Shown: piece by piece, positions 1 through 28,035 of the stretch | Position numbering within the stretch: the stretch's first letter is position 1 | How the letters are laid out: each line of letters begins with the position of its first letter | Virus record (IMG/VR): IMGVR_UViG_2563366924_000006 | Coordinates: 1-28,035 of that record | Strand: one strand, 5' to 3' | DNA from: a virus | Taxonomy: Duplodnaviria; Heunggongvirae; Uroviricota; Caudoviricetes | Length of the DNA: 28,035 bases | The notes under the pieces: generated by a model | Told to the model about the DNA's origin: nothing | The model's input: the letters and a program-made list of their open reading frames with translations, nothing else | Database searches by the model: none | Program-made: the position numbers and the translations under genes

Positions 1-159
1 AACCTGTAGAGACTTAATTTTACCCAAAGTAATACCCAGTATTTATATGGTTTTGTATATTAAATCATATGTGCCGCCGTCATGGAACACAGTTAGAAAC
101 AATGCGAAATGTTATCAAACATGATGTTCACCCTAACCCTTTTTTGAGTTGGTCATCGG

Positions 160-445
160 AAAACCGTCACAACCGTCACACCCTTTCAAAACACCTCATA
201 ACCACATGAAATAATTATCGAAAAGTTGTGACGGTAAAACCATCACAAACCGCAACAGAAACCGTCACAGAAAAAATAATTCTTAAAATTCATGTGATTA
301 AAAAATGCATATGTGATCATTATAAACCGTCACACCGTGATGGTTTTGTGATGCTTTTGTGATGGTTTTCATTTCTTGATTTATTTATATATATCATATA
401 GATAATAATACTTTTTAAACCTTGTGACGTTTGTGACGGTTTTCC
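160..445. repeat. Array of about 11 copies of a 9-bp repeat AACCGTCAC (variant AACCATCAC) in both orientations, in AT-rich non-coding DNA; candidate replication origin or arm-type protein-binding sites
   Basis: Direct copies at about 162-170, 171-179, 238-246, 259-267, 325-333; inverted copies (GTGACGGTT / GTGATGGTT) at about 228-236, 337-345, 348-356, 359-367, 424-432, 433-441. A very AT-rich stretch at about 361-420 lies between repeat blocks. No convincing ORF. Confidence 0.6.
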
Positions 446-1068
446 GATGCCCCCCCTCAAATTTTGAAAACTTCGCTATTGGCTGGATTTCACCCTGAAT
501 TGTTGGTTGTTTTGTATGTGTAAGTGTTGTGGGTTAGTTATGGTGATATCGGTGTGTGATGTACAAGTGGTGCACAGGGCTGACAGTGCAAGTCATTGCA
601 ATGGCGTAAAAGCTACCAACAAGACGCAACCCCGCACCAGATAAGGCTTTGCCAAACTCAGCCATGAACGATCGCCAATAAAATCCGTATGTCAGGAACT
701 CACGAAAACCACCTAACTCATTGTTATTATTTGTGTTGATTTTCATCCTCGAAATTTGGCCTGCCCGCTCAACTGAAATCCACTGAAATTCATTACATTC
801 TGTGCAATTGCCATTTATCTCGGAATCCCCAGCACTGGCGCGGCCTGCGGGGAGCAATTGCACAAATCCCCAACTGAAAAAACTTTATGACGCAAAGAGC
901 GCAGGCGGGTGCGGTGTAGCGCGGTTTCCGTGATGCGATTCGTTCCGTGGGTGGCTGCGGCTGCGTTTCTGCGGGCCGCTGTGGTGACGATCCTTTCTTG
1001 CCCATGCGTTGACGTGATGGCGCTTTTGCGTGGCCTGTGGTGCGTTCTGGGGGCTGTATTTGAGGTAC

Positions 1069-7333: not shown

Positions 7334-8507
7334 TCTTCAGCTCCACAGTAAGCGATGTCAGGCGCGGCACTTCCAGCTGGCTGGTGATGTCTTTGATGGA
7401 AAACTCCACCGAATCGACACCGCTCAGTAATTCGTGCAACTCCCTGCCAAGCTGTGAAAATGAGAAACGCGAATAAGGCCATGTCTTCACCACATCCCAG
7501 GCAGTATTTTCACGAAATGCGCAACGGATCAGGCTTTCGACATCACTTTTTAGCGCGGCTTGCGCTTCATCGCTTAGGTTGGAAAGATTGACCACGTACA
7601 CCGTTGCCGTCAGGTCACGGTGCGTTTCGGGCATGGCCATGCATTGCATATCATCGCCATGGCCGTGATGCCCCTGCGTATTGATAAAATCATTGACCGC
7701 ATCAATAAACGGCTGCGATGCCTGACCACTGTCGAGCAGCAGATATGCGTTTGCCGTACCGGGCCCGCGCGGTGCGTCATGCTTAAAGAAGATGCGATCC
7801 ACTGACAGCGCCACCACTTCCGCAATCATGCTGCGGTAAATCGCATCGGTATGATAATTACCTACCAGGTTGAACTGGTTGCGGCAACGTTCGCGCAGTT
7901 CATCATCTGATTCGTCATCGCCACCCGGTTGCGTCAACCAGTCATCCTCTGTCACCGCGCTGGCAATGCCAGGCACGGCCACCGGCAGAATACGGTAATA
8001 ACCGGGTGCCAGATTCCATGCAGCCCCCGCGCCATTGGCCTGTACTGGCACCAGAGCTGAAGCGACGTTTGCCGGGATGATTGTGTCAGCGGTGACGGCA
8101 AGCTGATAAATAACGCCATTAATCCGCTCAGTCTGCACAACCGTACCGGCTGGCACTGTTGCCACCTGGCCGGCGGTAATTTTGGTAAAACGCACTACCC
8201 CCTGCGCCGCGCTGGCGGGTTTCGGTGTGACATTCAGCCCCCACGCCAGCAGACGCAAAAGCGAGCCGGTCGCAGTGGCCACAAACATGTTGGCCATGAC
8301 AATGTTAATCAGCGCACTGATGATCCACATCACCGGCGTGGTGATTAGTGCCGTGACCAGACGCCAGAACGGAGACATGCGGGAGGTATTCGTCACAAAC
8401 CCCTCGGCTTTCACCAGGCGGTTAAATTCCGCTTTTACGGCTTCTTCAGTAACCGGCATTCCTGCATCCTGCAGGACTTTTTCAAAATCAGCCTTCGGCT
8501 TTTCCAT
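7326..8507 (-). CDS. Baseplate J-like protein (gpJ / gp6 family)
   Basis: Contains the Baseplate_J-type acidic motif GGDDESDDELRERCRNQ. Start placed at the ATG at 8507, which has a strong GAGGGAG ribosome-binding site; the ORF track extends it to 8549. Confidence 0.75.
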   Translation of the reverse strand: MEKPKADFEKVLQDAGMPVTEEAVKAEFNRLVKAEGFVTNTSRMSPFWRLVTALITTPVMWIISALINIVMANMFVATATGSLLRLLAWGLNVTPKPASAAQGVVRFTKITAGQVATVPAGTVVQTERINGVIYQLAVTADTIIPANVASALVPVQANGAGAAWNLAPGYYRILPVAVPGIASAVTEDDWLTQPGGDDESDDELRERCRNQFNLVGNYHTDAIYRSMIAEVVALSVDRIFFKHDAPRGPGTANAYLLLDSGQASQPFIDAVNDFINTQGHHGHGDDMQCMAMPETHRDLTATVYVVNLSNLSDEAQAALKSDVESLIRCAFRENTAWDVVKTWPYSRFSFSQLGRELHELLSGVDSVEFSIKDITSQLEVPRLTSLTVELKNA

Positions 8508-19230: not shown

Positions 19231-21003
19231 ATGGCACAAAAATATTCGGACGAAATCAGGGCAGTGGCGCGGCAGCTGTACCTGAAGCGATGGACACCGC
19301 AGGAAATCAAAGAGGAATTAAAACTCCCTTCAGTACGCATCGTTTATTACTGGGCTGAAAAATTCAGCTGGCGGGACATGCTCAGTGAAGAAGGAGTAGA
19401 AGCAGCTCTGTCACGCCGTATTCAGTTACTGACAGACCGGGATAAAAAGACAGATACCGACCTGCGAGAACTGGATCAGCTCGTTGGCCATCACGTCAAA
19501 ATCATGGCGCAGCGGGCAAAACGAGAAGAAAAGCTGCAGCAGCTGCAGAACGGCAATGTGACCACAAATAGCGGTGTCACCCTCACTGATGAGGGTAACA
19601 AGCAGGAGCGCAAAGGCCGCAAAAAGAAAAATGACATCAGCCATCTGACGGCAGAATCTTTTGCAGAATGGGTTTCTGTGCTGTTTGGCTACCAGCTGAC
19701 ATTGCGTGAGAACCTGCATCAGAAAATCCGCAACATCCTTAAAGCTCGCCAGTTAGGTGCAACCTGGTATTTTGCCGGTGAAGCACTGGAAGATGCCGTA
19801 TTAAACGGCAAACCGCAGGTGTTTTTGTCAGCGTCAAAGCGCCAGGCTGAGGTGTTCCGCTCTTACATAGTCAACATTGCCCAGCAATTTCTGGGTGTCG
19901 AACTGACAGGAAACCCCATCCGACTGAGCAACGGCGCAGAACTGAGTTTTCTCGGTACCAACAGCAACACGGCCCAGTCCAACAGCGCCAACGTCTATAT
20001 AGACGAGTATTTCTGGATACCGAAATTCCGCAAACTCAATGACGTGGCAAGTGCGATGGCCACGCACGACAAATGGCGGTTGACCTACTTTTCCACACCC
20101 AGCTCAAAAGCTCATGAAGCCTACCCGTTCTGGACTGGCGATGAATGGCGTCGCGGTCGGGCCGAACGAAAGGACGTTGTATTCCCGAAAGAAGCAGAGC
20201 TGCGTGATGGCGGTCGTCTGTGTCCGGATAAACACTGGCGTTTCATCGTCACTATTGAAGATGCCGTAAAAGCAGGATTTAACCTGGCGAACGTGGATGA
20301 CCTGCGCGACCGCTACAGCGGCCCGGCGTTCGACATGCTGTTTATGTGCGTGTTTGTCGATGATAAAGACGCCGTTTTTGCCTTCGACCAGTTAATGAAG
20401 TGCGGCACCGAACCAGCGTTATGGCAGGACTTTAAACAGGATGAGGCAAGGCCATTTGGCAACAGGGAGGTGTGGGGTGGCTATGACCCCAGTCGCACGA
20501 CGGACAGGGCCATTTTTGTGATTGTTGCACCACCTATTCACGCCGTTGAAAAATTCCGCTTGCTGAAGAAATGGGCCTGGACTGGTCTGTCTTTCAAGTA
20601 CCAGGCAGAACAAATCAAAAAAATCAAAGAACAATACAACCTGACGTACATCGGTATTGATGTGACGGGCATTGGTGCCGGCGTGTTCGACATTGTCAGT
20701 GCATTCGCCCCACGTGAAACAGTTCCCATTCATTACAGCGTGGAAAGCAAGAACCGTCTGGTACTGAAAATGATTGATACCGTTGTCGGCAACCGTATCG
20801 AGTGGGACAGGGAAGATAAGGACATTGCCGCCAGCTTTATGGCCATCAAGCGCACCACAACCAGCAGCGGCAATGCCATGACCTTTGTCGCCACACGATC
20901 AGTTGAAACCGGTCACGCAGACGATTTCTGGGCCATATCTCATGCAATGATTAATGAGCCGCTGAATACCGAACATAAACGCAAATCAAGATGGATTTTG
21001 TGA
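19231..21003 (+). CDS. P: Terminase large (ATPase) subunit, P2 gpP-like
   Basis: 590 aa, the same length as P2 gpP; AGGA ribosome-binding site; followed by the portal gene with a 13-nt overlap. Confidence 0.9.
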   Translation: MAQKYSDEIRAVARQLYLKRWTPQEIKEELKLPSVRIVYYWAEKFSWRDMLSEEGVEAALSRRIQLLTDRDKKTDTDLRELDQLVGHHVKIMAQRAKREEKLQQLQNGNVTTNSGVTLTDEGNKQERKGRKKKNDISHLTAESFAEWVSVLFGYQLTLRENLHQKIRNILKARQLGATWYFAGEALEDAVLNGKPQVFLSASKRQAEVFRSYIVNIAQQFLGVELTGNPIRLSNGAELSFLGTNSNTAQSNSANVYIDEYFWIPKFRKLNDVASAMATHDKWRLTYFSTPSSKAHEAYPFWTGDEWRRGRAERKDVVFPKEAELRDGGRLCPDKHWRFIVTIEDAVKAGFNLANVDDLRDRYSGPAFDMLFMCVFVDDKDAVFAFDQLMKCGTEPALWQDFKQDEARPFGNREVWGGYDPSRTTDRAIFVIVAPPIHAVEKFRLLKKWAWTGLSFKYQAEQIKKIKEQYNLTYIGIDVTGIGAGVFDIVSAFAPRETVPIHYSVESKNRLVLKMIDTVVGNRIEWDREDKDIAASFMAIKRTTTSSGNAMTFVATRSVETGHADDFWAISHAMINEPLNTEHKRKSRWIL

Positions 21004-22034
21004 TGAGCAGAAAGAATAAAAAGCAGCCTGTTACCGCCGAAAACACCGCGCCGGCGCAGCAAAAAATGTCGATGATCTCTTTTGGCAATCCGGAGCGGGC
21101 TATCCTAAATCCGCTCGAGTACGAGCCGGTCTATTTTGACAGTTCCAGCATGTACTACACGCCGCCGGTCAACCGACTGGCACTTGCAGAACTGCCCGAT
21201 ATTAACGGCCAGCATGGCGGCATATTGCGAGCCAGAACCAACATGATCACCGCCGATTTAATCAGTGGTGGCGGTATGCTTCAGGATGATATTCAGGCCA
21301 CAGTGTTAAACCTGCTGACTTTTGGGGATGTGGGGTTGCTCAAATTGCGTAACGCATTCGATAAAGTCATTGGCCTGCTGCCCCTGCCCTCGCTCTATAC
21401 CCGCCGCGGTAAAAACGGAAAGTTTTATGTGCTTCAGAAAAGTGGCCATCTGGAATATGCCAGCGCAGACATTATCTTTGTGAAGCTGTATGACACACGC
21501 CAGCAGGTCTACGGTAAACCGGATTATCTCGGCGGCATTCACTCTGCCATGCTCAATAATGAGGCCACTATTTTCCGTCGTCGCTATTACAAGAACGGCG
21601 CTCATCTTGGGTACATCCTTTACACCACTGACCCGAACATGACAGATGAAATGGAAGATGAGATGAAGGAACAAATTGCTGCAGGTAAAGGTGTCGGTAA
21701 CTTTAAATCAATGCTGATTAACATCCCGAACGGAAAGGAAAAAGGTGTGCAACTGCTCCCGGTCAGCGATATGGGGGCAAAAGATGAGTTTGTTAACATC
21801 AAAAATATCAGCATGCAGGATATTTTGAACGCTCACCGCTTCCCACCAGGCCTCGCCGGTATGATGCCGAACAATAACAGCTCATTCCCCGACATCACGA
21901 AAACCCGCGACGCATACCAGCGTGATGAAGTGATCCCGGTGCAAAAACTCATTAGCGATGCTGTGAACACAGATAAGGAAATACCCGCAAACTTGCGCAT
22001 TAATTTTGCACAATCAAAGCCGAACGAGGCATAA
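20991..22034 (+). CDS. Q: Portal protein, P2 gpQ-like
   Basis: 347 aa (P2 gpQ is 344 aa); EATIFRRRYYKNGAHLGYILYTTDP closely matches recalled P2 gpQ AATLFRRRYYLNGSHMGYILYLTDP. Confidence 0.9.
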   Translation: MDFVMSRKNKKQPVTAENTAPAQQKMSMISFGNPERAILNPLEYEPVYFDSSSMYYTPPVNRLALAELPDINGQHGGILRARTNMITADLISGGGMLQDDIQATVLNLLTFGDVGLLKLRNAFDKVIGLLPLPSLYTRRGKNGKFYVLQKSGHLEYASADIIFVKLYDTRQQVYGKPDYLGGIHSAMLNNEATIFRRRYYKNGAHLGYILYTTDPNMTDEMEDEMKEQIAAGKGVGNFKSMLINIPNGKEKGVQLLPVSDMGAKDEFVNIKNISMQDILNAHRFPPGLAGMMPNNNSSFPDITKTRDAYQRDEVIPVQKLISDAVNTDKEIPANLRINFAQSKPNEA

Positions 22035-22095
22035 TAGCGTGAAAATTAATCATAAGAAGTATTATCGGTTACCGTCAAACGCAAGGAGCAGAGGT

Positions 22096-22356
22096 ATGCG
22101 CATTAAATGTCCTGAGTGTGGATCAAGAGCGATTATTAAAACAACAAATCCAATCCACCCTCAGCTTTCCGAACTCTACTGCGCCTGTGGCGATGTGAAT
22201 TGTGGCCATACATATGTTTTGCAGGTGTCGTTTAAACATACGTTAAGCCCGAGCAGAAAATCACTTGATGATTTACTGGTGGGGTTGATTGGCTCGCTCG
22301 GCCAGAAACAAAAGGCCGAGCTAATCAGCCGGCTGAGTCACTCAGCTGCAGCATAG
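22096..22356 (+). CDS. ogr: Ogr/Delta-family zinc-finger late transcription activator
   Basis: From the ATG at 22096 (AAGGAG ribosome-binding site): MRIKCPECGSRAIIKTTNPIHPQLSELYCACGDVNCGHTY, matching the Ogr Cys pattern (recalled P2 Ogr CPLCQHAAHARTSRYITDTTKERYHQCQNVNCSATF). The ORF track start at 22006 is a TTG. Confidence 0.85.
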   Translation: MRIKCPECGSRAIIKTTNPIHPQLSELYCACGDVNCGHTYVLQVSFKHTLSPSRKSLDDLLVGLIGSLGQKQKAELISRLSHSAAA

Positions 22357-22376: not shown

Positions 22377-25031
22377 CTATTTATCCCGACTGAACACCCA
22401 GCAGCGGAATGTTTCTGGCATTCGCTGCATTTCCCCTTTGCCCTTGTTCGCCCGTTCGCTAACCGCACTACGTTTCGTCGTTTGGCCTATGAAACGTCGC
22501 TCACTGCTGCTTTTAAGGAGTTTTTTGATTTCCGTTAATGTGAAATTCATACGCTGCCGGTGAGCTGCGGCGACTTCCTCCATGTGATTAAAGTTAACGG
22601 CTATTTCACTGTCATCTGTTGAATGATTTATACCGAACGGCGCAAGTTCATCAAGATAATCAAACAGCTCCCAGAACTCCTGAACAAGTGGATGATCCTT
22701 TTTGAGTGCATGGCAGCGCTCGATGGCCAGCGCGGTGATGGCTTCACGTGTTTTATGAATACGGTCAACAGAAAGAGGCACAACAAGCGCCAGCGCTTCG
22801 AGCAACCCCGCTAATTGAGCATGGTTTTTCGCTACACGGATATGACGAATATCAGGGTGTGTTTCCAGTTCATTACGGGCGCGTTCATAACCACGGCCAT
22901 AAGCTTCCAGCACTTCCTGTTCTCGCATAATGGACTGCAGAGTAAAGCCTGAAACCTGGCTAACCGGTATTTGCTCAAGGCGTTCAGCTGCGTGGCGGGT
23001 ATGAATAGACTGGCCACGTTTATCGGTATAGATATGAATGATACGCTCCAGAAATGCCTTGCTGCCGTCTGTATCCGCATTCTGTGCTATCACGATAGCG
23101 CCCCGGAATGGCGGCTCGTATGTCTCGTTATTGTTAGATTTGATACCCACGGCGCGGGATGCGCGACCGTTATAAAGGGATTTCAGCTCATCCCAGTCAA
23201 AAGCGCGCTGTTTAGCATTATCCGTGGTGCGGTCACCTTCTATCAGCACTACAGGCAAATTCCCTACCTGTGCAAAGTTACGGCCACGCGCTGCAGGTGT
23301 AGATTTTGACGGGTCAAAACCTTCATATTCTTCACGGCCAGCAAGCTTCCAGAGAAATTCTATCAGGGTAGATTTACCCGTGCCGGGTTCACCGACAATT
23401 TCCAGAAACGGGAAAGATTTATCACGCTCGCGTATCTGTTCAGCAAATAACGAACCCAGCCAGAACGCCAACGCCACATATCCTTTTTCACCAAATGCCG
23501 TCCAGATATCATCCACCCAACCCGTAGTGAACTCATTCAATTTTGGATTTAGATCCAGTGATGGCGTTAGGCTCAGACTTTTAACGCTGGCACTGTTGAT
23601 TTCGAAATAATCCTCATCGTTCATCTCATACAGCTTGCCACTGCAGACCGCCACTCGGTTAAACAACCAGGCTGAATAATCTTTGTTATAGCCGATAAAA
23701 TTCTGCGTTTTCACTTCTTTGATTTCTGGAAGCCGCAACTGGATAAACTTATCCAGCTGTTTGGTACTGCCGGTGTAAACCGCACCTTTAGCAATATGCA
23801 AAAGGCGCTTTTTAAATTCTGCAGAGCTGGTCAGTTGATTCGCAGTAAACGTGTCCTTAATCGCGGGGTGATTGGGCATATTTACTTTCACGTAATACCA
23901 AGATTCATCCGTCGGCTCAGAGCGCTGGTAATACAACGGAGTCAGCCAGCAGTTGGCGATTTCAGTCACGCAGCCAGATTCTTTCACTGCCCGCGCCTTG
24001 GCTTCCCATTCCATCACCACTTCCTGCCCGGAATTAGCGATACGGTCATAGGCTCTCATGTATCTGTCCAGGTCCAGTTCGAACCAGTACATGCGGGAAC
24101 CATGCTCAAAATAGAAGGAATGCCACTCATTATGCTGATGCATCAGCAGGGCTTTTTCAGTCGGGCTTTTTGCCAGCAGAAGATCGCCAAAATAACGATA
24201 GTTTTTGATGTCCGATTTGCTAAATCTGTCGCGGATTAGCAGGTCATTCCAGTCAAGTTCAACTGCTGTTTTGAGCGGCTGCGCCGCCCGGACATCCCAG
24301 CCAGCAGACTTGCTGCGTGATGCAAATGAAAGGGTGTGTTTCGTTCCGGCCTTATCGCCATCAAAGGCCCAAACCAGACGTGGCCGGGGTTTCTCACCCA
24401 GTTCTTTAGCCAGCGCATCGAGCGAGGCCAGAGGATAGTTATTGCTACTGAGTGTAGCCACAGCGGGTAAACCGGCCTGGCATAAACTGAGAGCGTTAAA
24501 AATACCCTCAGTTATCCAGATTTCTTTTGCATCAGGCAGGTGGATAAACGGCGGCACCCACCAGTGACCACCGTAATTGCCTGAGAAATGCGCCTTCTGT
24601 TTGAAACGGTCTGGCTGGTCAATGATGCGCTCCCATGTAGCGCCGTTGGCCAGCTTAAATTTAACAGTGGCACTACCCAGCCCATGACGGACAAACGCGC
24701 CCTGGGTAAAACAACCTTTGAGAATGTCAGTATCAAGGCCACGCGCTTCACGTAAATACGCTTCTGCCGCAGCAGCCGGTGATTCGACTGTTGCGACATA
24801 CCGCTTTGACCAGTCCTCAAAAATATCGGAATACAGCTCTTTGACTGCGACCTCCTTACCGCATTTATTTTCACGGCCACATTTAAGAAGCCAGGGCTTT
24901 TCCGCACTGGTAAATAGTTCGCGTTTCTGGCAAGCAGGGCAAACACCCTGCTGTAAATATTTATCTTTCTCTTTAAATTCAAAATCATTAATGAGACGGC
25001 GAACAACTTCCTGTTGTATGGATACGTTCAT
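22377..25031 (-). CDS. Phage P4 alpha-type primase-helicase replication protein
   Basis: 884 aa; N-terminal zinc-ribbon (CPACQ...CGRENKCG), primase/Toprim-like acidic region (EGIFNALS, WAFDGDKAG), Walker A GEPGTGKST in the central helicase-like domain, long C-terminal domain. Confidence 0.85.
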   Translation of the reverse strand: MNVSIQQEVVRRLINDFEFKEKDKYLQQGVCPACQKRELFTSAEKPWLLKCGRENKCGKEVAVKELYSDIFEDWSKRYVATVESPAAAAEAYLREARGLDTDILKGCFTQGAFVRHGLGSATVKFKLANGATWERIIDQPDRFKQKAHFSGNYGGHWWVPPFIHLPDAKEIWITEGIFNALSLCQAGLPAVATLSSNNYPLASLDALAKELGEKPRPRLVWAFDGDKAGTKHTLSFASRSKSAGWDVRAAQPLKTAVELDWNDLLIRDRFSKSDIKNYRYFGDLLLAKSPTEKALLMHQHNEWHSFYFEHGSRMYWFELDLDRYMRAYDRIANSGQEVVMEWEAKARAVKESGCVTEIANCWLTPLYYQRSEPTDESWYYVKVNMPNHPAIKDTFTANQLTSSAEFKKRLLHIAKGAVYTGSTKQLDKFIQLRLPEIKEVKTQNFIGYNKDYSAWLFNRVAVCSGKLYEMNDEDYFEINSASVKSLSLTPSLDLNPKLNEFTTGWVDDIWTAFGEKGYVALAFWLGSLFAEQIRERDKSFPFLEIVGEPGTGKSTLIEFLWKLAGREEYEGFDPSKSTPAARGRNFAQVGNLPVVLIEGDRTTDNAKQRAFDWDELKSLYNGRASRAVGIKSNNNETYEPPFRGAIVIAQNADTDGSKAFLERIIHIYTDKRGQSIHTRHAAERLEQIPVSQVSGFTLQSIMREQEVLEAYGRGYERARNELETHPDIRHIRVAKNHAQLAGLLEALALVVPLSVDRIHKTREAITALAIERCHALKKDHPLVQEFWELFDYLDELAPFGINHSTDDSEIAVNFNHMEEVAAAHRQRMNFTLTEIKKLLKSSSERRFIGQTTKRSAVSERANKGKGEMQRMPETFRCWVFSRDK

Positions 25032-25071: not shown

Positions 25072-25290
25072 TCAGAATTTTATCTGTTTGTTATACCGCT
25101 CATGCGTCATTAATACCCAACGCTGACCTTTATCTTTACTAAGTAAACGCCAGCGTAAAGAAACATGAATAGATAAGTAATGTTTTGGTTTAATGACCTG
25201 ATAAACTTTTCTGCCATCGTAGTATTCACTAAGCATTGAAAATGACTTGTTAATGACATTTTCATTTGCATGAGAAGTCACAATTAACAT
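25072..25290 (-). CDS. Small basic hypothetical protein (54-72 aa) in the AT-rich cargo block
   Basis: ORF starts immediately after the stop of the exonuclease gene; very AT-rich; no clear ribosome-binding site; no family recognised. Confidence 0.3.
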   Translation of the reverse strand: MLIVTSHANENVINKSFSMLSEYYDGRKVYQVIKPKHYLSIHVSLRWRLLSKDKGQRWVLMTHERYNKQIKF

Positions 25291-25292
25291 AG

Positions 25293-25853
25293 CTATTTCA
25301 CACTGTTTTTTATGCCAAGGAACATCCAGATATAAGAAACAATTTTGATATTATGAAGCGCATGTGCCAGTGAGTTACGCTGAAAGTCATATTTAATAAT
25401 GCTATTCATATTCAGCCCAAGTTCTTCTGCTATTGTCACCATGGTAATGACACTCTGCTCATTAGCTTCAAGAAAACACTGACCGGCGAACCTGTCCAGG
25501 TAATGATGTATCACCTTGCTATGCATGGACGGACAACCAAACCAGGTCTTGACGTATTTGGCATCAGAATTTTCAATGATAAACCCGTACAGGTCACAGA
25601 TAGCCAGCTCAATATCCTGACAATCATCATCCAGTATCTGACTGCGAACCTCTGAAGGCTGACGTAACCACCACTGGATAGCGTGGGCACTTACCGTACC
25701 GCCATTACTCATACAGTCATCAAGGCTGATACGTCTGTAGAATTGCTTACCAACCTCCCCAGTTGTAGGGTCAAAGAAAACGGCGCTTAAACCCGTAATA
25801 GCTGCGGTGTGCTTTTCGTCCATCAGTTCTACATCAATCATTAAATGTTGCAT
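25293..25853 (-). CDS. 3'-5' exonuclease, T4 DexA-like (DEDD-type)
   Basis: From the ATG at 25853 (AAGGA ribosome-binding site): MQHLMIDVELMDEKHTAAITGLSAVFFDP... resembles the recalled T4 DexA N-terminus (DFETMG..EKAAVIDLSVIAFDP); second block HAIQWWLRQPSEVRSQI versus STIEWWKNQSPEARKNI. The ORF track N-terminal extension to 25973 is hydrophobic and lacks a ribosome-binding site. Confidence 0.65.
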   Translation of the reverse strand: MQHLMIDVELMDEKHTAAITGLSAVFFDPTTGEVGKQFYRRISLDDCMSNGGTVSAHAIQWWLRQPSEVRSQILDDDCQDIELAICDLYGFIIENSDAKYVKTWFGCPSMHSKVIHHYLDRFAGQCFLEANEQSVITMVTIAEELGLNMNSIIKYDFQRNSLAHALHNIKIVSYIWMFLGIKNSVK

Positions 25854-25866
25854 GTGGATATCCTTA

Positions 25867-26199
25867 TCAGGAAACGTGGCGAGAATTGGAGGAAGTATTA
25901 CGCTTACGCGCAACACTATTAGCAGCCAGAGATATAAGGCCGGGAACACTGCTTTCTTCAGGAACCTGACCACTGAACACCATTAATGTGATGGTGTGCA
26001 ATTCTTCATAGTCTGTTATGTCATTATTAAAATGCGCAGATGACGAAATACCTTCAAGGCATTTTGCCAATTTGATATTCAACTCCATCAACTGCAAAGC
26101 ATCGCTATGAATAGCTGACTGGTCAGTATTGATGTTTTCAATTTGATTATGATAATTCTGCAACAAACTACGAATTATCGTGGCGTATTTTGCTTTCAT
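25867..26199 (-). CDS. Hypothetical early protein (about 110 aa) in the AT-rich cargo block
   Basis: First gene after cox on the same strand; AT-rich; basic Ser-rich C-terminus; start uncertain (ATG at 26199 or GTG at 26232); no family recognised. Confidence 0.35.
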   Translation of the reverse strand: MKAKYATIIRSLLQNYHNQIENINTDQSAIHSDALQLMELNIKLAKCLEGISSSAHFNNDITDYEELHTITLMVFSGQVPEESSVPGLISLAANSVARKRNTSSNSRHVS

Positions 26200-26275
26200 A
26201 ATTAACCCAAAGAATAAATTATTCAATATCACGAATGCTTTTAGAATTACTCACCCATGAGAACACGAGTGATTT

Positions 26276-26572
26276 TTATTGTTTCGCATTCTGCTGTTTC
26301 ATTTTTTCAGTAGTGAATAGGCGGTTTTTCCAGTCATGCCACTCAGGCGGGGCATTCTGTGCCAAGTGGGCAACATATGCATCCCACTCACCTTTATGAA
26401 TATAAACCTCGCCACCTTTTTTTGATGGGTTTAAAGGGTCTTTCATTCGGATTACCGGCAATTTACCAGCTGTCGCCATTTTTCGAATTGCTGCCGGAGT
26501 TTTACCTACATATGCAGCAAAAAGTTCTGGCGTCACAAGGTCTGAAAGCGCGTTTTCGGCTAGTTCTTTCAT
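26276..26572 (-). CDS. cox: Cox-like excisionase / early regulatory protein
   Basis: 98 aa; ...AAIRKMATAGKLPVIRMKDPLNPSKKGGEVYIH...PPEWHDWKNRL resembles recalled P2 Cox (GAVRRMIDKGKLPVIDMTDPQSASGRAGEYWVY...IRDGWLMWLGL); GGAGGA ribosome-binding site; divergent from C. Confidence 0.85.
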   Translation of the reverse strand: MKELAENALSDLVTPELFAAYVGKTPAAIRKMATAGKLPVIRMKDPLNPSKKGGEVYIHKGEWDAYVAHLAQNAPPEWHDWKNRLFTTEKMKQQNAKQ

Positions 26573-26670
26573 CTGTGGTATCCTCCATCAGTTTGGGTTC
26601 CTAAGGCGTTTTAAGTCGTCCTAGGGTTTATTTAGTCAGAAATAACTGACCTAATGATAGTCAGAAGGTT
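26573..26670. promoter_or_regulatory. Lysis-lysogeny switch region between cox (-) and C (+), with candidate operator repeats
   Basis: 98-bp AT-rich intergenic region; direct repeats TAGTCAGAA at about 26633-26641 and 26658-26666 (25 bp centre to centre), a related TAAGTCGTC at about 26612, and a small palindrome GTCAG-N6-CTGAC at about 26635-26650. Confidence 0.6.
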
Positions 26671-26976
26671 ATGACCATGTCAATGAGCTATGCTCAAAAA
26701 TTAAAGAGTATCCGTGCAGCAGAAGGGCTAACGCAAAAACAGCTGTCAGAGCTAACAGGCGTAAGTTTGGGAATGATTAAAAACTACGAAAGTGAACAGC
26801 ATCCAGCTGGCGTTCAGACAGTTGAAAAAGTGATACAGGTCGAAAGGTTCGAAAAATATACACTCTGGTTAATGACGGGAAAAACAGCCCCTGCAGCGGG
26901 TCAAGTTTCTCCGCCTCTCTCCCCTGATGGGCAAGACAAAATAAAATCGCGCCCCTCAGACCAGAAAACTGGCTAA
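26671..26976 (+). CDS. C: Immunity repressor, P2 C-like
   Basis: 101 aa (P2 C is 99 aa); FEKYTLWLMTGKTAPAAGQVSPPLSPDGQ...SDQKTG resembles recalled P2 C FTKYTLWFMTNQIAPESGQIAPALAHFGQ...SGQKTG; HTH-like segment LTQKQLSELTGVSLGMIKNYE. Confidence 0.85.
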   Translation: MTMSMSYAQKLKSIRAAEGLTQKQLSELTGVSLGMIKNYESEQHPAGVQTVEKVIQVERFEKYTLWLMTGKTAPAAGQVSPPLSPDGQDKIKSRPSDQKTG

Positions 26977-27042
26977 TTATCTGGTTTTTCTATTCTTTAT
27001 CACAAAAATTACACAATGATTTTAACATCGGAGGGCTTCGCT

Positions 27043-28035
27043 ATGTCGATTAAGAAGCTTGATGATGGTCGTTTTGAAGTGGATGTAAGACCGCGCGGGA
27101 CTTCAGGAAGAAGAATCCGGCGTAAATTTGACAGAAAGGCAGAGGCCCAGACATTTGAGCGGTACGTACTGACAAACTTTCACGATAAAGAATGGCAGGA
27201 CAAACCGGCAGATCAAAGGCTCGTATCTGAATTGATTACTTTATGGTGGAGTTATCACGGGAAAAATCACAACTATGGTGATTCTTACCGAAAGCGTCTG
27301 GAGAAGATCCACCGCGAAATGGGCGAACCCAGAATCTACATGCTGACCCGTAACTTTTTGATGAAGTATCGCGCTACCAGGTTGCAAAGCGGTGTATCAG
27401 CAGGAACGGTAAACAGAGATTTCAGTGCTATGTCCAGCATGTTTAGCCTGCTGATCGACATGGAAGAATTCCACCATGAAAATCCCTTCCATAGCGTGCG
27501 TAAGCTGAAACTGGAAAACACAGAAATGTCGTTCCTGTCAGAGGATGAAGCTCGGGAATTGCTGAATGCTTTGACTGATGATGACCGCAGAGTTGTAGTC
27601 CTCAGCCTGAATACAGGTGCGAGGTGGGGGGAAGCCAGCAATCTCAAGGCTGAACATGTTATCAGTAATAAGGTGACTTTTGTGAAGACCAAAACAGGCC
27701 CAGCGCGTACCGTTCCGGTTTCACAGGAGGTTGCTGATTATATCCTCACCCGGAAATCAGGAAAGCTTTTTAAAACTGACTACCAGCGCGTTCGTGAGGT
27801 GCTTCGTAAGATAAAGCCCGATTTACCTAAAGGTCAGGCACTGCATGTTTTGCGGCACACCTTCGCAACTCATTTCATGATCAATGGCGGGAATATCATT
27901 ACCCTTCAGAGAATACTGGGGCATACAACGATTGAGCAAACCATGACGTACGCTCACTTTGCCCCGGACTATCTGGCTGATGCAATCAGGTTTAATCCCA
28001 TGAAAGGGAGTGTCCATATAACGTCCACTGACTAG
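27043..28035 (+). CDS. int: Tyrosine integrase, P2 Int-like
   Basis: 330 aa from the ATG at 27043 (GGAGGG ribosome-binding site): MSIKKLDDGRFEVDVRPRG... resembles recalled P2 Int MAIKKLDDGRYEVDIRP; catalytic region LSLNTGARWGEASNLKAEHV, HVLRHTFATHFMINGG and the Tyr in TMTYAHF; TAG stop is the last codon of the window. Confidence 0.9.
   Translation: MSIKKLDDGRFEVDVRPRGTSGRRIRRKFDRKAEAQTFERYVLTNFHDKEWQDKPADQRLVSELITLWWSYHGKNHNYGDSYRKRLEKIHREMGEPRIYMLTRNFLMKYRATRLQSGVSAGTVNRDFSAMSSMFSLLIDMEEFHHENPFHSVRKLKLENTEMSFLSEDEARELLNALTDDDRRVVVLSLNTGARWGEASNLKAEHVISNKVTFVKTKTGPARTVPVSQEVADYILTRKSGKLFKTDYQRVREVLRKIKPDLPKGQALHVLRHTFATHFMINGGNIITLQRILGHTTIEQTMTYAHFAPDYLADAIRFNPMKGSVHITSTD

What the first reader, a model, noticed from the sequence alone, without database searches (positions are those of the whole stretch)
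160..445. Dense array of 9-bp repeats (AACCGTCAC / AACCATCAC) flanking an AT-rich core: candidate replication origin for the alpha-type primase, or arm-type binding sites
About 11 copies of a 9-mer occur within about 280 bp of non-coding AT-rich DNA. Direct copies are mostly on the left and inverted copies on the right, around a very AT-rich stretch (about 361-420) that could act as an unwinding element. P4 alpha binds short iterated octamers at ori and crr, so this array could be the cognate origin of the alpha-type primase-helicase at 22377-25031. Alternatively the repeats could be arm-type integrase or IHF-associated sites of an attachment region, if the prophage end lies here. The ORF track does not explain this region.
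Basis: seen in the sequence. Interest (0 to 1): 0.6.

Follow-up and report, generated by a model that had tools for sequence, protein, structure and literature searches.

The report
Iteron-type replication origin of a P2-like prophage
The cluster of 9-base repeats is real and is most likely the start site for DNA replication of this P2-like prophage, recognised by the phage's own primase-helicase; it is a known kind of element, but it has not been mapped by experiment in this phage group.

Summary
AACCRTCAC occurs 8 times exactly (0.47 expected) and 11 times with at most one mismatch, and all 11 copies lie in 162-441. The array is a roughly 300-bp module (154-449) closed by a 27-nt inverted repeat, each arm being CATCGGAAAA plus two tandem iterons. 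It contains the least stable 50 bp of the whole window (371-420).

It is not an attachment site. The window is a prophage between raiA and pheL. Both att junctions lie outside the window, and the integrase arm sites are a different word (CGTCCAC).

Modules with the same layout but other iteron words occur in every phage examined that carries this Toprim-SF3 primase-helicase, including phiCTX, whose "R3 repeats" have no annotated function. P2, which replicates by rolling circle, has none. In phi3 and seven IMG/VR loci the module sits 0.07-1.3 kb after the primase gene. In the two of these where I located cos, it is about 3 kb away. One pair of 88%-identical arrays differs by the same base in all but one of its iterons.

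The last 110 residues of the primase-helicase model as a winged helix. The best matches include the staphylococcal pathogenicity island (SaPI) Rep initiator.

Best reading: an iteron origin bound by the primase-helicase (confidence about 0.7). No binding or origin activity has been shown.

The parts
154..180 (+). Left terminal inverted repeat: CATCGGAAAA followed by two tandem iterons (162-170 and 171-179, 9-bp spacing)
   Evidence: 26 of 27 bases are complementary to 423-449. The same 'CGGAAA + 2 iterons' end is seen in RSY1, Halomonas phage 4908, L047 and L048.
228..246 (.). Iteron pair facing outwards (TGTGACGGT aa AACCATCAC): sites 228-236 (-) and 238-246 (+)
   Evidence: It is invariant in all 19 aligned arrays, but those loci were retrieved with a 23-mer covering this pair, so that invariance is by construction.
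260..268 (+). Iteron AACCGTCAC. A degenerate copy, AACCGCAAC, lies at 249-257.
   Evidence: retained with at most 1 mismatch in 19/19 relatives.
325..367 (.). Iteron block: 325-333 (+) facing 337-345 (-), then 348-356 (-) and 359-367 (-) at 11-bp spacing (one helical turn)
   Evidence: retained with at most 1 mismatch in 17/19, 9/19, 14/19 and 18/19 relatives respectively.
368..420 (.). AT-rich core, candidate DNA-unwinding element
   Evidence: 371-420 is the least stable 50-bp duplex of the 28-kb window (about 4.9 sd from the mean). 361-420 is 83% A+T. The ATATCATATAGATA core is conserved.
423..449 (-). Right terminal inverted repeat: two tandem iterons (424-432 and 433-441, 9-bp spacing) followed by TTTTCCGATG
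   Evidence: both sites retained in 19/19 relatives.
450..525 (.). Conserved flank of unknown role (C-run, TCAAATTTTGA palindrome, CACCCTGAWTTGTTGG)
   Evidence: the majority-base fraction is 0.85-0.95 across 19 arrays. Conservation decays beyond about 530.
22377..25031 (-). Primase-helicase (884 aa): zinc ribbon, Toprim primase, P-loop helicase (weak DUF5906 match, inferred SF3 type), C-terminal helical bundle and winged helix. Proposed initiator.
   Evidence: Toprim_2/3; DUF5906 below its cutoff; phrog_1139; NCBI name 'bifunctional DNA primase/helicase'.
22380..22709 (-). C-terminal 110 residues of the primase-helicase: predicted winged-helix domain, proposed iteron reader

Best explanation
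The array is the vegetative replication origin of this P2-like (Evevirus-like) prophage. It is an iteron origin of the P4 and SaPI kind.

Proposed mechanism:
1. The phage's 884-aa primase-helicase binds the AAAACCRTCACA iterons through its C-terminal winged-helix domain.
2. Protomers bound at the two terminal tandem pairs, which point towards each other, and at the phased internal copies assemble into hexameric helicases.
3. The 368-420 AT-rich core melts.
4. The Toprim domain of the same protein lays down primers.
5. Host DNA polymerase III extends them.

Shown here: the array is real and non-random, its iterons are conserved far more than its spacers, it is not att, a module of the same layout accompanies this primase family, and the protein has a predicted C-terminal winged helix.

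Inferred, not shown: that this protein binds these repeats, that melting occurs at 368-420, and that the fragment has origin activity.
For: 1. Enrichment. All 8 exact and all 11 near-exact copies of the 9-mer lie in 162-441.

2. Footprint in 19 related arrays. Iteron columns have a majority-base fraction of 0.95 against 0.80 for spacers (Mann-Whitney p = 7e-9), after excluding the columns used to retrieve the loci. The left flank is unrelated between loci: morons, terminators or attP arms.

3. Same plan with other iteron words in all 12 or more lineages examined that carry this primase family.
- GGTAAY: RSY1 1-300, Halomonas phage 4908 180-475, phiCTX 35100-35390, Smp131 about 33030-33340.
- AGGTTAC: 2F_1.
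- CTGACAG: UFJF_PfPro.
- CCGGAACA: phi3.
- GGTTACA, CGTTACA, CCTTACA or GGTCACA: IMG/VR loci L047-L056.
The plan, seen in part or in full in each, is an outer pair of tandem iterons about 9 bp apart at each end, in inverted orientation and in several lineages joined to CGGAAA; internal copies in both orientations; and an AT-rich segment.

4. P2, which has the homologous terminase and cos but a rolling-circle A protein, has no such array.

5. Position. In phi3 the array starts 74 bp after the primase stop and about 2.9 kb from cos. In L048 it starts about 190 bp after the stop, with cos 3.3 kb away beyond three restriction-modification genes. Five further loci have it 0.2-1.3 kb after the gene. 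This is the rep-then-ori order of SaPIs and of P4 alpha-crr (PMC9371898).

6. Concerted switch. The L053 and L055 arrays are 88% identical, yet all iteron copies but one differ by the same base, GGTCACA against GGTTACA. This is expected if a single sequence-specific reader selects them.

7. Unwinding element. 371-420 is the least stable duplex in the window.

9. Other phage regulators are unlikely readers. No copy of the 9-mer lies in the C-cox intergenic region, at the divergent late promoter, or in att. No sigma-70-like promoter is found in 1-1150.
Against: - There is no experimental evidence in any member of this family. No paper in the searched library maps an origin for phiCTX, RSY1 or Smp131-type phages.
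- In the window, and in phiCTX, RSY1, Smp131 and Halomonas phage 4908, the array is far from the primase gene. It lies between attP and a cos or cos-like site, so linkage to the primase gene is not universal.
- I could not tie the iteron switch to particular C-terminal residues. L055 and L056 share an iteron word yet are only 71% identical in the last 100 residues.
- No consensus DnaA or IHF sites were found.
- Most of the 80 fetched primase loci showed no array inside the fetched stretch. The array may be out of range, or degenerate 6-mers may have been missed, so co-occurrence rests on the dozen or so lineages inspected in full.
Confidence: 0.7

Rival explanations
1. The array is a packaging accessory site, analogous to lambda cosB. 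It would be bound by the small terminase subunit (gpM homologue), with or without IHF, to position terminase at the nearby cos site.
For: In the window, phiCTX, RSY1, Smp131, Halomonas phage 4908 and UFJF_PfPro, the array lies 0.17-0.8 kb from a cos or cos-like sequence and on the same side of it. The phiCTX record annotates two IHF sites inside its R3-repeat region.
Against: In phi3 and L048 the same kind of module is 2.9-3.3 kb from cos, with 3-6 genes between, and directly after the primase gene. P2 has the homologous terminase and cos but no array. The distance to cos varies, and a gene intervenes in the window. Where cos is clear it has its own local repeats: TGCATAA in RSY1 and Halomonas phage 4908, R4-R6 in phiCTX, ACTGAAAT in the window.
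Confidence: 0.07
2. The array is bound by some other phage or host DNA-binding protein and serves regulation or maintenance rather than initiation. Examples would be a silencer or nucleoprotein barrier next to the moron and attR end, an incompatibility or copy-control site, or a centromere-like site.
For: The identity of the binding protein is inferred, not shown. The window has uncharacterised early genes, for example the 121-aa phrog_7058 product and a ParE-like gene. The conserved flank 450-525 has no assigned role.
Against: No partition genes are present. The 9-mer is absent from the C-cox control region and from the late promoters. There is no promoter-like site in the region. The layout matches characterised origins: an AT-rich core and two inward-facing iterons at each end (PMC9371898; P4 annotation). 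The only gene found in all lineages inspected that carry an array is the primase-helicase. The neighbouring genes differ from lineage to lineage.
Confidence: 0.13
3. The repeats are integrase arm-type (or IHF-associated) sites of attP/attR.
For: The array lies near one prophage end. The 9-mer AACCGTCAC resembles the true arm word ACGTCCAC in composition.
Against: The source contig shows attL directly after the int stop and attR beyond an acyltransferase gene, about 1.2 kb left of window position 1. The shared core is about CGGGCGCGTTTTTT. The arm sites are CGTCCAC/GTGGACG in the window's prophage, ev239, L017 and L007. In ev239 and Smp131, genes spanning 1.1-2 kb separate attP from the array. 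In phi3 and L048 the array is on the far side of int, C, cox and primase. The array is not split by integration.
Confidence: 0.01
4. The array is a non-autonomous mobile element (a MITE-like insertion) recognisable by its 27-nt terminal inverted repeats.
For: The terminal inverted repeats are nearly perfect at 26/27. As a single strand the element folds much better than shuffled sequence, z = -8.2.
Against: It occurs as a single copy at a fixed genomic position in all relatives. No second copy is found in the window or in the loci. The terminal repeats are built from the same iterons as the interior. No target duplication is evident.
Confidence: 0.02

Closest known systems
Satellite phage P4 ori and crr, bound by the alpha primase-helicase
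   Same: Short iterons (8-9 bp) occur in both orientations, in tandem pairs 9-11 bp apart, next to AT-rich DNA. The initiator is one polypeptide with Toprim primase, a P-loop helicase and a C-terminal DNA-binding domain. P4 crr lies directly after alpha and next to attP, as the array does in phi3/L048 and in phiCTX/RSY1 respectively.
   Different: The iteron word differs (TGTTCACC). P4 needs two separated elements, ori and crr 4.5 kb apart; here there is one cluster. Homology to alpha is detectable only in the Toprim region (hhalign probability 91%). P4 lacks a 27-nt terminal inverted repeat enclosing the whole element.
Origin of staphylococcal pathogenicity islands (SaPI ori) and its Rep / PriRep self-loading initiator-helicases, plus the related SCCmec Cch
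   Different: No sequence similarity was detected. The primase is of another type (Toprim here). SaPI iterons are 5-6 nt. In the window the module is about 22 kb from the gene in window coordinates.
phiCTX 'region 2, R3 repeats' (35100-35390) between attP and cos
   Same: It has the same architecture and the same position in the order int-attP-array-cos, and it is about 290 bp of AT-rich DNA. Its iterons (AATTACC/GGTAAT) occur in both orientations with tandem pairs at the ends. The phage encodes a 40.6%-identical primase-helicase, orf37.
   Different: The iteron word differs. The record annotates only 'repeats' and two IHF sites and gives no function. The window shows no IHF consensus.
Lambda ori (O-protein iterons plus an AT-rich region) and iteron plasmids (RepA/RepE/pi)
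   Same: The general logic is the same: repeated initiator sites beside an easily melted segment, a winged-helix reader, and co-evolving iteron and initiator specificities.
   Different: Those initiators are not helicases or primases and recruit host DnaB and DnaG. Their iterons are 18-22 bp and mostly direct. Lambda ori lies inside the initiator gene.

Membership tests
Iteron-type replication origin (generic: P4, SaPI, lambda, iteron plasmids) | Several copies of a short word clustered in non-coding DNA, far above chance | tested here: met
   8 exact copies against 0.47 expected, all within 280 bp.
Iteron-type replication origin (generic: P4, SaPI, lambda, iteron plasmids) | An adjacent or embedded AT-rich, easily melted segment | tested here: met
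   371-420 is the least stable 50-mer of the window, and 275-324 is the second.
Iteron-type replication origin (generic: P4, SaPI, lambda, iteron plasmids) | A matching initiator with a sequence-specific DNA-binding domain, encoded by the same element | tested here: inconclusive
   The primase-helicase has a confidently predicted C-terminal winged helix resembling SaPI Rep and Cch, and it co-occurs with the module. Binding itself was not tested.
Iteron-type replication origin (generic: P4, SaPI, lambda, iteron plasmids) | Iterons change together with the replicon lineage (specificity groups) | tested here: met
   At least eight iteron words occur across primase lineages. A concerted one-base switch separates L053 from L055.
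Iteron-type replication origin (generic: P4, SaPI, lambda, iteron plasmids) | The fragment supports initiator-dependent replication, and replication starts there | not testable with these tools
   This needs a plasmid replication assay, 2D gels or marker-frequency analysis.
P4 ori/crr - alpha system (strict membership) | Type I octamer TGTTCACC | tested here: not met
   The window's word is AACCRTCAC.
P4 ori/crr - alpha system (strict membership) | Two cis elements, ori and crr, kilobases apart | tested here: not met
   There are no exact copies of the 9-mer outside 162-441 in the 28-kb window.
P4 ori/crr - alpha system (strict membership) | Initiator homologous to alpha along its whole length, including the C-terminal origin-binding domain | tested here: not met
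Iteron module of Peduoviridae that carry the Toprim-SF3 primase-helicase (phiCTX R3-repeat type) | A roughly 300-bp module closed by inverted tandem iteron pairs (about 9-bp spacing), often joined to CGGAAA, with internal copies in both orientations | tested here: met
   Window 154-180 and 423-449. Compare RSY1, Halomonas phage 4908, phi3, L047, L048, L050, L053 and L055.
Iteron module of Peduoviridae that carry the Toprim-SF3 primase-helicase (phiCTX R3-repeat type) | Co-occurrence with a phrog_1139-type primase-helicase, and absence from P2-like phages that use the rolling-circle A protein | tested here: met
   Present in all lineages inspected in full. P2 has none. Only one A-type phage was checked.
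attP / arm-type integrase sites | Repeats flank the crossover core and are separated into attL and attR on integration | tested here: not met
   The array is intact inside the prophage, and both junctions lie elsewhere.
attP / arm-type integrase sites | Repeats match the integrase's arm word | tested here: not met
   The arm word is CGTCCAC/GTGGACG.
cosB-like terminase binding region | Fixed close spacing to the cos nick site, and presence wherever the terminase/cos type is present | tested here: not met
   The distance ranges from 0.17 to 3.3 kb with genes between. P2 lacks it.

The most novel reading that the evidence does not exclude
The module is the shared, so far unmapped origin of the whole class of Peduoviridae that replaced P2's rolling-circle A protein with a Toprim-SF3 primase-helicase. 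The phiCTX 'R3 repeats', which carry no functional annotation in the GenBank record, would belong to it. Its closed palindromic design, with two inward-facing iteron pairs at each end, would load two helicase hexamers head to head, much as SV40 large T antigen and papillomavirus E1 do at their palindromic origins. Concerted one-base iteron switches such as L053 against L055 would define replication-specificity groups that decide which co-resident prophages and satellites can use each other's initiator.
Probability: 0.3. Interest if true: 0.55.

Novelty: new member of a known kind. Interest (0 to 1): 0.4.

Why it matters
If confirmed, this gives an origin to a large group of temperate P2-like phages: Evevirus, phiCTX, RSY1, Smp131, phi3 and many IMG/VR proviruses. 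No paper in the library I searched maps a replication start for them, and their GenBank records, where they mark anything here, annotate only 'repeats'.

Practical uses:
- It allows an ori feature to be annotated in these genomes.
- It supplies a compact origin-plus-initiator pair for vectors in several Proteobacteria.
- It offers a natural series of iteron/winged-helix specificity variants, including a one-base switch between near-identical arrays, for studying how initiator and origin co-evolve.

It does not reveal a new principle. The layout and logic are those of P4 and of SaPI origins.

Tried and rejected
- **E. coli genomes.** Megablast of window 1-900 against complete E. coli genomes gave no match, so the host context came from the look-up of encoding contigs instead.
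- **Literature.** Searches for an origin in phiCTX-, Smp131- or RSY1-type phages found none mapped.
- **RNA families.** An Rfam scan of 1-1200 gave only sub-threshold chance hits.
- **Promoters.** The sigma-70 scan found none in 1-1150. The two 'terminators' inside the array are simply iteron palindromes.
- **Host-factor sites.** There are no strict DnaA-box or IHF consensus matches in 1-1100. A DnaA-like TTATCCACA-type word near 198-206 in some relatives is not conserved.
- **Specificity residues.** Mapping the iteron switch onto C-terminal residues using L053, L055 and L056 was inconclusive, because the C-terminus also varies between loci with the same iteron.
- **Plasmids.** The primase was searched against plasmids to find a minimal replicon. 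This returned only 5 records, mostly phage-like circles, and was not pursued.
- **Automated survey.** The array survey of 80 primase loci was limited by the 10-kb flanks and by degenerate 6-mer iterons. Absence in the other loci is not evidence.
- **Window source.** The window's own left flank is not in IMG/VR.

Full report
**1. The observation**

AACCRTCAC has 8 exact matches in the 28,035-bp window, against 0.47 expected from dinucleotide-preserving shuffles (largest 4). All 8 lie in 162-441. Allowing one mismatch gives 11 copies in the same 280 bp:
- + strand: 162, 171, 238, 260, 325
- - strand: 228, 337, 348, 359, 424, 433

The extended consensus is about AAAACCRTCACA. The element is closed by a 27-nt inverted repeat, CATCGGAAAACCGTCACAACCGTCACA at 154-180 against 423-449, with 26 of 27 bases complementary. 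Each arm carries two tandem iterons 9 bp apart. Three internal copies (337, 348, 359) are 11 bp apart.

The AT-rich stretch is real. 361-420 is 83% A+T, and 371-420 is the least stable 50-bp duplex of the entire window (dG -46.8 against a mean of -70.3, sd 4.8).

**2. What the window is**

The gene content is that of a P2-like temperate phage, reversed relative to the P2 map:
- tail, lysis and head genes on the - strand
- terminase large subunit and portal, 19231-22034
- an Ogr-like gene, 22006-22356
- an 884-aa Toprim plus P-loop primase-helicase, 22377-25031
- a ParE-like gene, an exonuclease, Cox, an HTH repressor, and a tyrosine integrase ending at the last base of the window

The closest named phage is Escherichia phage ESSI2_ev239 (Evevirus). 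Its primase is 86% identical, and its array (28364-28729) is 76% identical.

Exact-protein look-ups place the window in an enterobacterial contig (GCA_003362835.1), with related contigs found the same way. The prophage sits between raiA and pheL. attL starts just after the int stop, beyond the window's right end. attR lies beyond an acyltransferase gene, about 1.2 kb to the left of window position 1. The window starts at the base next to that gene's start codon. The shared core is about CGGGCGCGTTTTTT.

The integrase arm-type sites are CGTCCAC/GTGGACG. They occur at the window's last 25 bases, in attR, and on both sides of the ev239 attP at 26735-26970. The array is therefore wholly internal to the prophage, is not split by integration, and uses a different word. 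The attachment-site reading is refuted.

**3. Close relatives**

A 23-mer from the array retrieved 14 IMG/VR stretches and 4 genome contigs, from Cedecea, Pseudocitrobacter and two Erwinia. In the 19-sequence alignment, homology begins abruptly at about window 140-150. To the left of that point the sequences are unrelated: different cargo genes, terminators, or the P' arm of attP directly abutting the array in L017 and L007.

After leaving out the columns used for retrieval, iteron columns have a majority-base fraction of 0.95 against 0.80 for spacers (p = 7e-9). Most sites are kept within one mismatch in 17-19 of 19 sequences. The window and L018 carry a 10-bp insertion (270-279) relative to the others. 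That is one helical turn, and it also shows the region is non-coding. Conservation continues to about 525, across a flank I cannot explain.

**4. Distant relatives**

The primase-helicase belongs to the phiCTX orf37, RSY1 and Smp131 family at 30-48% identity. Every genome of that family that I inspected in full has a module of the same design with a different iteron word.

| Phage | Module position | Iteron word | Notes |
|---|---|---|---|
| phiCTX | 35100-35390 | AATTACC/GGTAAT | Annotated only as 'R3 repeats' with two IHF sites |
| RSY1 | 1-300 | GGTAAY | Ends CCATCGGAAAAAGGTAATTTCGGTAAC / GTTACCGAAATTACCTTTTTCCG |
| Halomonas phage 4908 | 180-475 | GGTAAY | |
| Smp131 | about 33030-33340 | GGTAAY | |
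| 2F_1 | 32113-32383 | AGGTTAC | |
| UFJF_PfPro | 800-1115 | CTGACAG | |
| phi3 | 7402-7720 | CCGGAACA | |

A weaker cluster (TATTCCA, 5 copies) lies at 12002-12175 in Mae-JY29.

The 'CGGAAA plus two iterons' ends recur in several of these lineages, including the window's own, which suggests common descent rather than convergence.

P2 shares the terminase, cos and virion genes but replicates by the rolling-circle A protein. It has no comparable cluster.

**5. Which gene does the module travel with?**

In the window and in the phiCTX group the order is int - attP - (cargo genes) - array - cos. That alone could suggest a packaging role.

Other lineages break that link:
- In phi3 the array starts 74 bp after the primase stop, and the cos-like sequence next to the portal gene is about 2.9 kb and six genes away.
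- A scan of IMG/VR with the primase alignment returned 80 loci. In seven of them (L047-L050, L053, L055, L056; primases 50-55% identical to the window's) the module lies 0.2-1.3 kb downstream of the primase gene.
- In L048 it follows the gene's terminator by about 190 bp. A clear P2-type cos (GGGCGTGGCGGGG) lies 3.3 kb further on, beyond three restriction-modification genes.

Rep followed by ori is the arrangement of SaPIs (PMC9371898) and of P4 alpha-crr. The variable distance to cos, the intervening genes, and the absence of the array from P2 all argue against a terminase site.

**6. A concerted iteron switch**

The L053 and L055 arrays are 88% identical across 420 bp. Yet every iteron copy but one differs by the same base: GGTCACA against GGTTACA, and TGTGACC against TGTAACC on the other strand. 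This is what one expects when a single sequence-specific reader selects all copies.

Their primases are 90-100% identical over most of their length, falling to 65-71% in the last 100 residues. However, L055 and L056 share the iteron word and are equally divergent there. I could therefore not assign the switch to particular residues.

**7. The proposed reader**

Pfam finds Toprim_2/Toprim_3, and DUF5906 below its threshold. PHROGs gives phrog_1139 'DNA primase', and NCBI names close homologues 'bifunctional DNA primase/helicase'.

Comparison with P4 alpha:
- A profile-profile comparison aligns only the Toprim region (probability 91%).
- There is no sequence hit to any solved structure.

So 'alpha-type' describes the architecture, not family membership.

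The C-terminus is the most divergent part of the protein between iteron classes: 30% identity between the window and RSY1, against 65% in the helicase core.

AlphaFold2 models:
- The last 195 residues (pLDDT 88.7) show a helical bundle followed by an H-strand-H-H-strand-strand unit.
- The last 110 residues alone reach pLDDT 93.1 and pTM 0.85.

These scores are modest but coherent: a winged helix at the C-terminal end of a self-loading helicase, as in SaPI Rep, whose C-terminal winged helix reads the ori iterons (PMC9371898).

**8. Other candidate readers**

The 9-mer does not occur, even with one mismatch, in the C-cox intergenic control region, at the divergent late promoter, or in att. This argues against the repressor, Cox, Ogr and Int. 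No sigma-70-like promoter is found in 1-1150. No Rfam family matches. No DnaA or IHF consensus is present.

**9. Mechanism, with the steps marked**

Shown:
- A conserved, non-random, non-att iteron module containing the least stable duplex of the window.
- Its association with one replication-gene family.
- A predicted winged helix at that protein's C-terminus.

Inferred:
- The winged helix binds the iterons.
- Protomers bound at the inward-facing terminal pairs and the phased internal copies assemble into hexamers.
- 368-420 melts.
- The Toprim domain primes, and host polymerase III extends.

I put this at about 0.7. Rivals:

| Rival | Confidence |
|---|---|
| Another regulatory or maintenance array with an unidentified reader | about 0.13 |
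| A terminase accessory site | about 0.07 |
| A MITE-like insertion | about 0.02 |
| att arm sites | about 0.01 |

**10. Comparison with what is known, and novelty**

The nearest analogues in function are the P4 ori/crr-alpha system and the SaPI ori-Rep/PriRep system. The phiCTX R3-repeat region has the same layout and position and is probably a relative; its database record gives no function.

Strict membership of the P4 system fails on three counts: the iteron word, the bipartite layout, and initiator homology.

The papers on Smp131 and RSY1 describe cos and att but no origin, and my searches found no mapped origin for this family. This is therefore a new member of a known kind. It is useful for annotation and as a specificity series, but not surprising in principle.

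**11. Caveats**

- Everything is computational.
- Co-occurrence rests on about a dozen lineages and one A-type control (P2).
- The 19 close relatives were selected by a word inside the array.
- The cos assignment in the window itself is tentative. It shares only the AGGCGGG core with P2-type cos and lacks the upstream GTGCATAAAAACC box.

Noticed in passing
window 750-920 (core 899-914): A cos-like core, GCGCAGGCGGGTGCGG, lies between the gpD-like gene and the array. ACTGAAAT-type repeats lie nearby at 762-769, 772-779 and 873-880. There is no non-coding room next to the portal gene, where P2 has cos. The ev239 record ends at the equivalent CCGCAGGCGGGGGC. The match to P2-type cos is limited to the AGGCGGG core, and the conserved upstream box GTGCATAAAAACC is missing, so the assignment is tentative.
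   Followed up: partly
L001 (NC_049392.1) 29121-29203: The RefSeq and GenBank record of Escherichia phage ESSI2_ev239 ends in Nextera adaptor sequence (CTGTCTCTTATACACATCT...ATCTCGTATGCCGTCTTCTGCTTG plus a poly-A run). This is untrimmed contamination at the contig end.
   Followed up: no
window 450-525: A conserved non-coding flank lies to the right of the array. It contains a C-run, the palindrome TCAAATTTTGA and CACCCTGAWTTGTTGG, with a majority-base fraction of 0.85-0.95 in 19 relatives. No promoter or RNA family matches, and its role is unknown.
   Followed up: partly
window 537-665 (- strand): A small ORF of 43 codons (MAEFGKALSGAGLRLVGSFYAIAMTCTVSPVHHLYITHRYHHN), partly hydrophobic, lies between the array and the cos-like site. 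Other relatives carry different small ORFs at this position.
   Followed up: no
window 25072-25290 (- strand): A ParE-like toxin domain gene (72 aa, PF24732, E 9e-15) is wedged between the exonuclease gene and the primase-helicase gene. No recognisable antitoxin gene lies beside it.
   Followed up: no
outside the window: L028 5021-5180 and L029 9810-11030: The window was cut at gene edges. The prophage continues about 1.2 kb to the left, with an Acyl_transf_3 cargo gene and then attR next to raiA, and about 0.1 kb to the right, with attL upstream of pheL. The att core is about CGGGCGCGTTTTTT. The Int arm words CGTCCAC begin inside the 3' end of int (window 28010-28030).
   Followed up: yes
L053 10930-11340 against L055 11600-12020: Two IMG/VR arrays are 88% identical, yet all iterons but one differ by the same single base (GGTCACA against GGTTACA). 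This is a natural specificity switch.
   Followed up: partly
window 22006-22356 (+ strand): The Ogr/Delta-type zinc-finger gene (116-aa ORF as listed, domain at residues 34-80) overlaps the 3' end of the portal gene by 29 nt. It occupies the place where P2 has cos, whereas P2's ogr lies between D and attP. This looks like an exchange of the positions of ogr and cos relative to P2.
   Followed up: no
L038 and L037 (IMG/VR contigs of 14-16 kb): These appear to be deletion derivatives of the same prophage type, judged from ORF sizes and order only. They keep int, the primase-helicase, and portal- and capsid-sized ORFs, and also the array, now 6.9-9.2 kb from the primase gene. They seem to lack the tail region.
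   Followed up: no
L022 (Smp131) 25406-27958: The annotated Smp131 primase CDS diverges completely from all relatives over its last 150 or so residues, and tblastn splits the match into two pieces. This suggests a frameshift or sequencing error near the 3' end of the gene in the record.
   Followed up: no
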